DNA of 63,706 bases, filler included, from Collodictyon triciliatum (Eukaryota): assembly GCA_043381765.1 (NCBI GenBank). It is 15 parts of 15 records of this genome, joined end to end, with 100 filler letters (N's around TTAATTAATTAA, not from the genome) between each part and the next. Parts side by side here need not be neighbours in the genome. Positions count along the whole stretch, not along the records: positions 4,566 to 9,033 come from JBHJMP010006065.1; 14 more parts are not named here. One strand, 5' to 3'. Below, in pieces: positions 6,419-8,385 of the stretch. A program made the position numbers and the translations under genes. The notes below the pieces were generated by a model. It was not told the DNA's origin, made no database searches, and saw only the letters and a list, made by a program, of their open reading frames with translations. Numbering within the stretch: position 1 is the first letter of the stretch; each line of letters opens with the position of its first letter.

Positions 6419-8331
6419 ATTAAAATAGCTTTGTTGAGTATATTTTTAGCGCTGATAAAGTCCCTTGTCAAGAAAACACTTTGTTTGCTTTCTGAGCGAT
6501 TACATTCTTTACATAAGACATCTATATACCTTTTTTGAATTTCCTTTCAGTTTCATATATTCCAGGTCTTTTTCGCAGTTACAACATATCTTGGAGGTTC
6601 TAAATTCATTTACAATAAATGTTTCAAAACGTTTGGGTAGTACCATTCGTAATCCTCTTCCAATTGTTGCCATAAAACGCTTTCATCAGAGATTTTCTGC
6701 TCCAGTCTCCATACGCCAGTACAACATCCTTGCCAAATGTCTTTTCGATTCGGTCCATAAACAATTGCTCACTTCTTTTTATATTAACATACTGTCTCCA
6801 TGTCATCTTTCGAAAAAAGCTACGTGTTCATAAAATCTAGGAAGTTCTATCTGGTATCTTGATTTCTTAGATATATATTCCGAAATTTTTCATAATCGAC
6901 CGTGCATAAATTTTGTTTACTCAGTTCTGTCTCTAAATCGATTAAAGATACTCTTGATGTCTCAAACTGCTGATTCTCTTCAAAAGTCATGAGAACAAAA
7001 GAAAAAGCATTTTGTAAATCTGTTGCCATGCATATCCCTGAAGCGTTGTATTTTTTTTTTCTCGCGCAAGAGTATTTTGTGATTTTTAAGAAATTTGCTA
7101 TCATGTCTTCTTTGGGTGTCGCGTAGCATAATTTCTTACCTGTCTCATCCACCATGTAAACCGAATAAAACTTGCCTGCGTCCACTCCAACTATTTTTTT
7201 GTCGCTAATAAAGATAACTGCTCTTCGGAAAGGTCATCTGTATAGACATAATCTTGGGTTGTTTGATTATATTTGGATTTTGAATTTGAAAACTCATTCT
7301 TTTCAAACAATTTTTTTTTCCTTTATTCGATTCAAAGTGTAGCGAGGTTATGCCATATTCTTTTCAAACAATAATGAAACCGCCAAGCCGTCTGTTTGTA
7401 TAATGTATTTAAAATTGTAGTCTCTTTGATGAAAGACCCTCTTCTTCATTTCAAAGAACTTATCCCATAGGGTCTCTTTGCATCCTGATATATTCTTCAG
7501 TAATATTGTTTTTCCAGTTAATGCTAATAGATCTATCAAACATGCAGTATCTAGAGTAATATGTCATGGTGTATTGTTAGTTCTTATAGAGATTGGTTGG
7601 AATAGTTTGGTTCAAATGTCCTCAATAATGCGATTCATGTAAATCACACATGGAATGTACTTATTTGGATTGACTTTGACGATATATTTGATACCATTTA
7701 GAATATCGCTGGGAATGGTATGATGCAAATGTATTTTAGCCCATTTATTTTGTTCCGGTATTTCGAGTTTCGTGAAGATGACTTTTTTTTTTTTAACTTT
7801 CGTAACTCTGCCTTTTTAACAGCTTCCGTAATATTCTCATTTTAGGAACTTTTTGATTTATAAAGCACAGTAACCACTTTGCAAAATGTTCCTTAATGTT
7901 ATTATGATAAGCTGTTAACACTTGCTTCGCCAAGTACGGCAATACATGAGACAGTCCAACCAACAGAAAGCGTTCTTCTTGGGACAAAAGGGATCGAAAA
8001 TCATTGAGATAAAAAAAGTCATCATGTCATCGCTTATATCTGATATTTTAATTTTGCAGGTCTATCTTGTAGAACTTTTCCAACTGTCATTAAAGCGAAA
8101 AAAAAAACATTTCATCGATTGTTTGGAGCTGTTGTGATTTCAATATGTAACATCCTGCAAACAGATAAGTGTCGGTAACCAAATTATGACACAATAAAAC
8201 CGTATCGTTGATTTTTTTTTTTAATAGTCATCCGCATTCTTTACAATCGACTTTAGAGATGTTTTCACATTTTGATAGTGTGGTTTTACAGACTTTAGAT
8301 TCTCAGACTCAAGACGTTTTCTTTTCTTCAT
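6419..8331 (-). pseudogene. Fanzor1 (eukaryotic/giant-virus TnpB-like RNA-guided nuclease), frameshifted pseudogene, 3' end lost in gap
   Basis: Manual cross-frame reconstruction from ATG 8331: MKKRKR...YQNVKTSLKSIVKN...INDTVLLCHNLVTDTY...LPYLAKQVLTAYHNNIKEHF...FQPISIRTNNTP*HITLDT...IQTDGLAVSLLF...DDLSEEQL...IVGVDAGK (RuvC-I D, 7180-7182)...LAYGDWS...GLR...VNEFRTSKICCNC (E, 6605-6607, plus Zn pair 1)...CKEC...TRDFISAKNI (RuvC-III D, 6460-6462). Several stops, homopolymer frameshifts and a LINE insertion. Confidence 0.9.
7296..7372 (-). mobile_element. 45-bp 5'-truncated LINE insertion (7312-7356) with 16-bp target-site duplication, inside the Fanzor
   Basis: ATTCTTTTCAAACAAT occurs at 7296-7311 and 7357-7372. 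The insert T8CCTTTATTCGATTCAAAGTGTAGCGAGGTTATGCCAT matches the LINE 3' ends at 33699 and 55809. The minus strand ends in AATAAA plus an A-tail. Confidence 0.92.
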
Positions 8332-8377
8332 CTGAAAGTCTTTGTTTTACTTCTTCCTTTAGAAAACTACCGAGTTT

Positions 8378-8385
8378 TCAATTTT
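8378..8385 (-). promoter_or_regulatory. AAAATTGA motif (Mimiviridae early-promoter consensus) 46 nt upstream of the Fanzor ATG
   Basis: Plus-strand TCAATTTT at 8378-8385, in the correct orientation and at a plausible distance. The octamer also occurs elsewhere in this AT-rich window (e.g. 15295, 28998, 30152). Confidence 0.45.

What the first reader, a model, noticed from the sequence alone, without database searches (positions are those of the whole stretch)
8314..8385. Giant-virus early-promoter motif and N-terminal NLS at the Fanzor start
Seen: an exact AAAATTGA 46 nt upstream of the ATG on the coding strand; the gene is intronless in an intron-rich genome; the protein starts MKKRKR. Established: AAAATTGA is the Mimiviridae early promoter, and Fanzor1 genes occur in these viruses. 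Inference: the element came from, or shuttles with, a giant virus. From memory the protein resembles Mimiviridae/Klosneuvirus-type Fanzors. A viral promoter together with a nuclear signal would suit expression in both compartments, possibly on infection. Caveat: the octamer occurs at least three other times in the window.
Basis: partly seen in the sequence, partly recalled or inferred. Interest (0 to 1): 0.72.

Follow-up and report, generated by a model that had tools for sequence, protein, structure and literature searches.

The report
Dead Fanzor with virus-like start signal
A broken copy of a many-copy jumping gene for an RNA-guided DNA cutter has an eight-letter sequence just where giant viruses put their early-gene signal; the gene likely descends from giant-virus relatives, but those relatives lack the signal, so it is likely a coincidence, possibly a relic, and unlikely to be a working switch.

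Summary
AAAATTGA (8378-8385, minus strand), the 46-nt spacing and MKKRKR are real. The gene is a dead Fanzor1, one of a decayed family (40 copies compared, 86% alike, every copy examined broken) with Helitron-type 3' ends. Its protein groups with Fanzor1s of Tc1/mariner-type elements on giant-virus contigs, so viral ancestry is likely.

The promoter claim is mixed. For: the octamer belongs to the family founder (24 of 40 copies exact), and 46 nt lies in the peak for other genes of those viruses (64 of 438 at 32-60 nt, against 0.6% in AT-rich host DNA). Against: 0 of 53 viral Fanzor relatives carry it (only four lineages; 23 have the late motif), it is no better kept than neighbouring 8-mers, its flanks are not clearly viral, and the branch to the viral relatives is long.

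The basic N-terminus is a family trait (48 of 53 viral relatives), and Fanzor NLSs are published. Shuttling or infection-driven expression has no support. Odds that it is a true promoter relic: about one in three. This scan already reported this family on other contigs of this genome.

The parts
8378..8385 (-). [quoted passage not shown]
   Evidence: exact in 24 of 40 copies, 15 of the other 16 differ by one letter or one gap; offsets 43-47 in the 18 copies where both motif and ATG were found
8314..8331 (-). Start codon and basic N-terminus MKKRKR (NLS-like; import not tested)
   Evidence: intact in 18 of 40 copies; same start in P0008; basic N-terminus in 48 of 53 viral relatives against 7 of 438 other viral genes
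6419..8331 (-). Broken Fanzor1 coding region, intronless, running into an assembly gap; RuvC motif letters (GVD, NEFRTSK, TRDF) and zinc-finger cysteines are readable in separate frames
   Evidence: weak Cas12f1-like_TNB hit, E 0.002, below the cut-off; a sister-copy fragment hits PpFz1 and SpuFz1 structures; about 61% identical to P0008
8398..8413 (-). Short tandem AATTGAC-type repeat upstream of the octamer (second unit decayed here); 36 of 40 copies have 2-4 AATTGA within 150 nt of the ATG
   Evidence: two or more in 7 of 908 AT-rich host windows and 15 of 438 viral upstream regions
8421..8430 (.). Approximate place where this copy lacks about 400 nt that sister copies hold
   Evidence: split matches (e.g. 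C2488, 396 nt apart); alignment
8431..8935 (-). Further upstream part of the element, shared with many copies; 5' ends vary; three other copies carry a fragment of the host RepHel Helitron gene further upstream
7312..7356 (-). 45-nt A-tailed 3' end of an abundant host retroelement inserted in the coding region, 16-nt target duplication (7296-7311, 7357-7372)
   Evidence: (D20)
8493..8549 (-). Second, shorter tail of the same retroelement between two near-identical direct repeats
   Evidence: D8, D12
6002..6418 (.). Assembly gap that hides this copy's 3' end; sister copies show stem-loops (likely omega-RNA scaffold), a terminal hairpin and CTAG followed by T

Best explanation
This is the 5' end of a dead copy of a Fanzor1 nuclease gene that likely descends from giant-virus transposons and was likely multiplied in this genome by a host Helitron; the octamer is a founder sequence that is now likely inert and more likely arose by chance in an AT-rich, AATTGA-repeating leader than came from a virus, and MKKRKR is the family's ordinary predicted nuclear signal. 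Shown: the copies are broken and about equally diverged (86.3 +/- 1.1%); their 3' ends have a hairpin and CTAG|T; three carry RepHel fragments; the nearest relatives with context are on giant-virus contigs inside Tc1/mariner-type elements. Inferred: a Fanzor1 left a viral mariner-type element, lost its transposase and inverted repeats, gained Helitron ends, spread in one old burst using RepHel in trans, was transcribed by the host from this leader and imported into the nucleus, where with its omega-RNA it would have cut empty donor sites; then the copies decayed.
For: Broken state: all 30 copies lack a full frame (longest coding stretch 186 aa), and the 88 matches hold stops or cover only part of the protein. 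Burst: 780 pairs, 81.6-90.0%. No extra conservation of the octamer: retention 0.60 against a mean of 0.572; 52% of 345 8-mer windows are kept as well or better. Viral relatives lack it: 0 of 53 IMG/VR upstream regions, 0 of 93 viral plus metagenome ones; 23 of 53 have the exact published late motif against 15 of 438 other viral genes, and 0 of 40 host copies do. The host leader aligns no better to viral Fanzor leaders than to other viral upstream regions; the upstream 1.1 kb gives no tblastn hit in viral upstream DNA. The path from host copies to the nearest viral row is 1.6 changes per site, with a stem of 0.69. Helitron: CTAG in 15 of 28 readable tails, followed by T in 14 of 15; RepHel fragments 70-79% identical in 3 of 40 copies; a RepHel frame over the Pfam cut-off in the genome. 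Basic N-terminus in 48 of 53 viral relatives; about 60% of Fanzors have a predicted NLS and 21 of 22 tested worked (PMC10530073, passages).
Against: The offset is the viral one: among other genes on the same viral contigs 79 of 438 have the octamer on the sense strand within 150 nt (34 antisense, 5 inside the CDS), peaking at 36-60 nt; 64 of 438 fall at 32-60 nt against 0.62% for AT-rich host ATGs, a ratio near 24. The 53 viral relatives are only four lineages (47, 3, 2, 1), and the late motif comes mostly from the largest, not the nearest (L031, L032, L038 lack it even with one mismatch). Neutral decay among dead copies cannot show whether the founder's octamer worked. The DNA around the closest intact relatives (P0008, P0130, P0132) could not be seen. 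Support for the exact sister group is moderate (88/81), and the context collections are viral or metagenomic, so cellular relatives are under-sampled; one sister-clade cluster has chrysophyte single-cell-genome members.
Confidence: 0.6

Rival explanations
1. The octamer is a true fossil of a giant-virus early promoter: the founder was captured from an unsampled giant virus together with its leader, in a lineage that had switched to early expression, and the motif was copied passively by the Helitron.
For: Exact motif on the sense strand at 43-47 nt, inside the viral peak; about 24-fold likelier at a viral gene than at an AT-rich host ATG; only 1 of 199 host ATG-frames of 100 aa or more has it in that band; the protein nests among viral Fanzor1s; the 12 nt upstream are as AT-rich as at viral sites (0.89 against 0.82). 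Two unchecked earlier notes describe a Fanzor2 transposon of Bodo saltans virus that carries this promoter (e1-624699, e1-1891313).
Against: 0 of 53 and 0 of 93 relatives have it; the flank score lies between viral and host sites (median -0.6; viral +4.2, host -4.3) and the downstream 20 nt are host-like (AT 0.68 against 0.87); long branch; no viral contig has the 19-nt leader pattern or a close protein; no homology of the upstream region to viral DNA.
Confidence: 0.33
2. The AATTGA cluster is a host regulatory element (sites for a host factor in the element's own promoter) and the octamer is one of its units.
For: 36 of 40 copies have 2-4 AATTGA within 150 nt, rare in host AT-rich DNA (7 of 908 windows with two or more, none with three) and in viral leaders (15 of 438 with two, none with three). 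The octamer is commoner in host DNA than 92% of 168 same-composition words.
Against: Two of the units are a simple 8-nt tandem repeat that expands in some copies; no enrichment before host ATG-frames (5 of 199 within 150 nt); that test lacks real gene annotation. This reading overlaps the best explanation.
Confidence: 0.12
3. The element still shuttles between host and giant virus and is expressed in both compartments on infection.
For: Viral ancestry of the protein; a basic N-terminus; the assembly holds a small element with VLTF3-like and packaging-ATPase-like genes (the second label is from recalled motifs).
Against: No intact copy among those examined; this copy stops after 36 codons; best viral relatives are 47% identical to the intact relative; the 3.6 kb read of that small element has no octamer.
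Confidence: 0.03

Closest known systems
Tc1/mariner (IS630-type) Fanzor1 elements of giant viruses, such as PGv-1 of Phaeocystis globosa virus (Bao and Jurka 2013, PMC3627910, passages read) and IMG/VR loci L031-L034, L038
   Same: Fanzor1 of about 600-650 aa, intronless, basic N-terminus; 43-47% identical to the intact relative P0008.
   Different: The viral elements have a divergent DDE_3 transposase, a small upstream ORF and ends of the type ...AAGGGTGTA, and no early octamer before the Fanzor. The host family has none of these parts in the copies seen and ends in hairpin + CTAG. Relatedness to PGv-1 itself was not tested.
Mimiviridae/CroV early promoter AAAATTGA (Suhre et al. 2005, not held; as reviewed in PMC5294985 and used in PMC11464507, passages read)
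   Same: Exact octamer, sense strand, within 150 nt of the ATG, at the offset seen in related viral contigs.
   Different: It lies in nuclear DNA of a dead element; downstream flank host-like; no transcript evidence; absent from the homologous viral genes.
Helitron-borne Fanzor1 CRe-1, -2, -3 of Chlamydomonas reinhardtii (PMC3627910; CrFNuc in PMC10530073)
   Same: Non-autonomous Helitron-type carrier of a Fanzor1, many copies, variable 5' ends, kept 3' ends.
   Different: CRe elements are Helitron2 with introns and variable target duplications; this family is intronless, ends in hairpin + CTAG|T like canonical Helitron1, and its protein groups with giant-virus mariner-type Fanzors.
N-terminal NLS of ApmFNuc and other Fanzors (Jiang et al. 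2023, PMC10530073, passages read)
   Same: Basic stretch at the N-terminus, also in viral Fanzors.
   Different: ApmFNuc is an IS607 Fanzor2; import was shown there and is untested here.
Solved Fanzor1 nucleases GtFz1 (9cer), PpFz1 (9cf0), SpuFz1 (8gkh)
   Same: P0008 matches all three, E 2e-28 to 4e-23.
   Different: Distant; the window copy cannot encode a protein.

Membership tests
Fanzor1 | C-terminal motif D-X(125,275)-[TS][TS]-XX-C4 zinc finger-X(5,50)-RD | tested here: met
   In P0008: GVDPG 362, NEFRTSK 554, CCNC 562, CKEC 587, TRDFNS 602; the matching letters are readable across frames of the window copy.
Fanzor1 | Sequence closer to Fanzor1 than to Fanzor2 or TnpB | tested here: met
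   The only PDB hits are three Fanzor1 entries; no Fanzor2 or TnpB reference was placed in the trees.
Fanzor1 | Intact frame able to give an active nuclease | tested here: not met
   Stop after codon 36, many stops and shifts; no intact copy among those examined.
Fanzor1 | Structured omega-RNA at the 3' end | tested here: inconclusive
   In a gap in this copy; four sister copies fold into the same first two stems; no covariation test, no RNA data.
Giant-virus early promoter | Exact AAAATTGA on the sense strand within 150 nt of the start codon | tested here: met
Giant-virus early promoter | Offset within the viral distribution | tested here: met
   46 nt; viral peak 36-60 nt, 64 of 438 genes at 32-60
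Giant-virus early promoter | Kept at the homologous place in viral relatives | tested here: not met
   0 of 53 (four lineages) and 0 of 93; the closest intact relatives could not be read
Giant-virus early promoter | Viral-type AT-rich flanks | tested here: inconclusive
   Score between viral and host sites; 17% of viral sites score lower, 20% of host sites higher
Giant-virus early promoter | Drives early transcription by the viral polymerase | not testable with these tools
   No RNA holder listed
Nuclear localisation signal | Cluster of four or more basic residues (classical pattern, recalled) | tested here: met
   KKRKR
Nuclear localisation signal | Confers nuclear import | not testable with these tools
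   Shown for other Fanzors only (PMC10530073)
Non-autonomous Helitron | 3' CTRR end after a subterminal hairpin, next base T | tested here: met
   CTAG in 15 of 28 readable tails, T next in 14 of 15; hairpin seen in the alignment; hidden in a gap in this copy
Non-autonomous Helitron | 5' TC end after A, no target duplication | tested here: inconclusive
   5' ends vary and no common terminus was defined; no systematic test for duplications
Non-autonomous Helitron | Related RepHel element in the genome | tested here: met
   Helitron_like_N over cut-off on C6377; 70-79% identical fragments in L011, L022, L190; a shared 3' end with it could not be checked
Tc1/mariner Fanzor1 element | Terminal inverted repeats and a DDE transposase | tested here: not met
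   Viral-type end not seen in the aligned 3' ends; transposase not found with one query and no control
Endogenous giant-virus fragment | Viral hallmark genes beside the gene | tested here: not met
   The neighbour on this contig is a PB1-domain host gene; flanks of sister copies are unrelated to each other

The most novel reading that the evidence does not exclude
A host Helitron captured a Fanzor1 straight from giant-virus DNA together with its early promoter and spread it through a protist genome, leaving hundreds of fossil viral early promoters at the viral spacing: a regulatory footprint that dates a virus-to-host transfer and could once have let infection switch the element on.
Probability: 0.3. 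Interest if true: 0.6.

Novelty: new member of a known kind. Interest (0 to 1): 0.27.

Why it matters
Viruses were proposed as carriers of Fanzors between eukaryotes in 2013, on protein trees. A viral promoter left in front of a cellular Fanzor would be independent, non-coding evidence for the direction of transfer. Here that evidence is suggestive only. The sounder by-products are that viral Fanzor1 relatives avoid the early motif and often carry the late one, that nearly all have a basic N-terminus although their viruses have their own transcription genes, and that this family seems to have changed carrier from mariner to Helitron, which this scan had already noted.

Tried and rejected
Expression: no RNA holder listed; three runs of guessed type, laid as contigs, two of which show many diverged copies and look like DNA; no evidence either way. 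Exact 19-nt leader pattern in viral contigs: 0. NCLDV capsid family in the own genome: none, but the control did not ring either, so uninformative. Viral transposase in the own genome: not found with this query. A second Fanzor family to serve as an independent test: the 15 loci fetched with a distant query were all the same family. Homology of the leader to viral Fanzor leaders: an alignment with L032 looks suggestive by eye but scores within the range of unrelated viral upstream regions; rejected. An upstream ORF in the 400-nt segment: five stop-free stretches gave no Pfam hit below E 0.1 and one gave no Atlas hit. CAG before the ATG as a splice acceptor: considered, but the preceding bases are A-rich and P0008 starts at the same residue; untested. 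'Intronless' as a sign of viral origin: rejected, since several cellular Fanzors lack introns (PMC10530073) and the host RepHel has a long open frame. Suhre et al. 2005 was not held.

Full report
Observation. The octamer is at 8378-8385 on the minus strand, 46 nt before an ATG at 8331 that opens MKKRKR. The window holds 8 octamers against 13.9 expected. It is a chain of contigs joined by N-linkers; the finding lies on G000:C6065. The frame stops after 36 codons and the rest is scattered over three frames. The 3' end runs into a gap at 6002-6418.

The gene. A stop-free fragment of a sister copy found an intact 648-aa metagenome protein, P0008, 61% identical, which begins MKKRKRQ, carries the Fanzor motif and matches three solved Fanzor1s. 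Six host copies read through against it are 59-64% identical over the residues read. The window copy is collinear with P0008 apart from a 45-nt retroelement tail, so it has no intron. That is not diagnostic: several cellular Fanzors lack introns (PMC10530073, passages).

The family. The own-genome DNA search scored 40 of 1241 candidate places and found matches on 40 contigs; the protein search scored 68 of 1130. None of the 30 loci has a full frame. I compared 41 loci (L001-L030 and L189-L200, leaving out L192 as a duplicate contig); 40 had the 5' anchor. Their coding regions are 86.3 +/- 1.1% alike over 780 pairs, as after one old burst. The shared 3' end is a set of stem-loops, a terminal hairpin and CTAG (15 of 28 readable tails; T follows in 14 of 15). 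5' ends vary. Three of 40 copies carry, upstream and in the same direction, a piece 70-79% identical to the start of a host RepHel gene. I read this as a non-autonomous Helitron; the 5' terminus was not defined. The window copy lacks about 400 nt that sisters hold upstream of the leader.

Ancestry. An alignment of 44 relatives found 402 relatives in viral contigs, of which 80 were kept as 78 loci, and 80 metagenome loci. The best are 43-47% identical to P0008. Their neighbours include mRNA capping enzyme, VLTF3 and ribonucleotide reductase, and a divergent DDE_3 transposase: Tc1/mariner-type elements in giant viruses, the kind described as PGv-1 (PMC3627910, passages). A FastTree of 103 rows (dereplicated at 62% identity, representative hits from P0200 on left out) and an IQ-TREE LG+G4 tree of 42 rows picked from it agree: host copies plus P0008/P0132 form a clade (100/100) on a stem of 0.69, sister (88/81) to a clade with four viral rows, with a second virus-holding clade outside (94/90). 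The nearest viral row is 1.6 changes per site away. Most rows have no label, the context collections hold few eukaryotes, and one sister-clade cluster includes chrysophyte single-cell-genome proteins. No test of one clade was run. Viral ancestry is likely, not shown; recent exchange has no support.

The promoter, results for. The octamer is exact in 24 of 40 copies, at 43-47 nt in the 18 where both it and the ATG were found. Among 438 other predicted genes on the viral loci, 79 have it on the sense strand within 150 nt, 34 antisense and 5 inside the coding start, with offsets peaking at 36-60 nt; 64 fall at 32-60. In 421 kb of the host (47 stretches of contigs C1-C30 plus the window), 19 of 3061 AT-rich ATGs, 35 of 12543 other ATGs and 1 of 199 ATG-frames have it in that band. 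The placement is thus about 24 times likelier at a viral gene than at an AT-rich host ATG.

The promoter, results against. None of 53 distinct viral Fanzor upstream regions has the octamer, nor any of 93 viral and metagenome ones (the other loci of 158 were dropped as cut off or duplicate). The exact late motif given in PMC11464507 (passages) is in 23 of 53, against 15 of 438 other genes and 0 of 40 host copies. These 53 are four lineages (47, 3, 2, 1), and the nearest ones mostly fit neither motif. The host leader is no more like viral Fanzor leaders than like other viral upstream DNA, and the upstream 1.1 kb has no protein-level match there. A flank profile puts the site between viral and host sites. 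The leader repeats AATTGA 2-4 times in 36 of 40 copies, which raises the local chance of a full octamer. Weighing a ratio of roughly 7-24 against a low prior that a leader survives from a virus over so long a branch gives about one in three; this number is a judgement.

The basic N-terminus. It is intact in 18 of 40 copies. Four or more K/R in five residues near the start occur in 48 of 53 viral relatives and 7 of 438 other viral genes. About 60% of Fanzors have a predicted NLS, 21 of 22 tested worked, and the mimivirus Fanzor2 has one (PMC10530073). It is a family trait and no sign of shuttling.

Mechanism. Shown: a broken, many-copy, intronless Fanzor1 with Helitron-type 3' ends. Inferred: descent from a viral mariner-type element, capture by a Helitron, spread in trans by RepHel, nuclear import and RNA-guided cutting in aid of copying, a role suggested for Helitron-linked Fanzors in PMC10432273 (passages); then decay.

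Known and new. Virus-mediated spread, Helitron-borne Fanzor1 and Fanzor NLSs are in print (PMC3627910, PMC10432273, PMC10530073). The early motif is reviewed in PMC5294985 (passages); Suhre et al. 2005 was not held. A viral promoter before a cellular Fanzor was not found by the searches Fanzor + promoter + NCLDV (one preprint, 10.1101/2023.08.09.552727, passages: laboratory promoters only), AAAATTGA + promoter (listing), Fanzor + giant virus + horizontal + Helitron (listing) and giant virus + early promoter + endogenous + transposon (listing). No supplements were read; the Fanzor tables there may list this family. Earlier notes of this scan describe the same family on other contigs, with divided views on the Helitron.

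Verdict. Observation confirmed; interpretation partly supported. New member of a known kind; interest 0.27.

Noticed in passing
viral loci L031-L108, 100 nt upstream of the Fanzor gene: Giant-virus Fanzor1 genes avoid the early motif (0 of 53) and often carry the exact Mimivirus late motif (23 of 53 against 15 of 438 other genes) and a TA[CT]TTAAA word (26 of 53 against 23 of 438), which suggests late expression.
   Followed up: partly
L032:5740-5950, L031, L038, L058 (between transposase and Fanzor): A small basic, helical ORF of about 65-90 aa lies between the divergent transposase and the Fanzor in these viral elements; function not examined.
   Followed up: no
3' terminal hairpin of L004, L005, L021, L025, L026 and others: The hairpin loop is inverted in 6 of 28 readable copies (CTTTC against GAAAG in 15), a recurrent micro-inversion.
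   Followed up: partly
window 7312-7356 and 8493-8549; L025, L016: Very short A-tailed 3' ends of an abundant host retroelement with 16-18 nt target duplications insert repeatedly into this family; longer copies lie at window 33702-34342 and 55807-56538.
   Followed up: partly
window 8362-8379, minus strand: A perfect 7-bp hairpin (4-nt loop) begins in the last two letters of the octamer and is present in most copies.
   Followed up: no
sister copies, about 125-410 nt upstream of the ATG (absent from the window copy): A GC-richer segment with stretches of about 90 codons free of shared stops in two sense frames; no Pfam or Atlas match; source unknown.
   Followed up: partly
L272 (G000:C1157:13761-17369): Compact intronless genes with a VLTF3-like protein (E 1e-3) and a P-loop protein resembling a packaging ATPase (recalled motifs); may be the small giant-virus-like element of note e1-9716976; no early octamer in 3.6 kb.
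   Followed up: partly
L204 (G000:C6377:627 onward): RepHel Helitron frame of at least 1190 codons (with an N gap) without a stop; possibly the autonomous partner.
   Followed up: partly
window 5221-5499 (+): PB1-domain host gene start (Pfam E 5e-11) on the same contig, facing the Fanzor; the element lies about 0.5-1 kb downstream, across the gap.
   Followed up: no
window 9311-9826 (-) and 11952-12383 (+): Two related leucine-rich-repeat gene starts on the next contig, the second followed by a long EEARKAEEA-type repeat.
   Followed up: no
whole window: Linkers of 44 N, TTAATTAATTAA, 44 N about every 4.55 kb: the window is 14 size-sorted contigs, so neighbours across linkers are not genomic neighbours.
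   Followed up: yes
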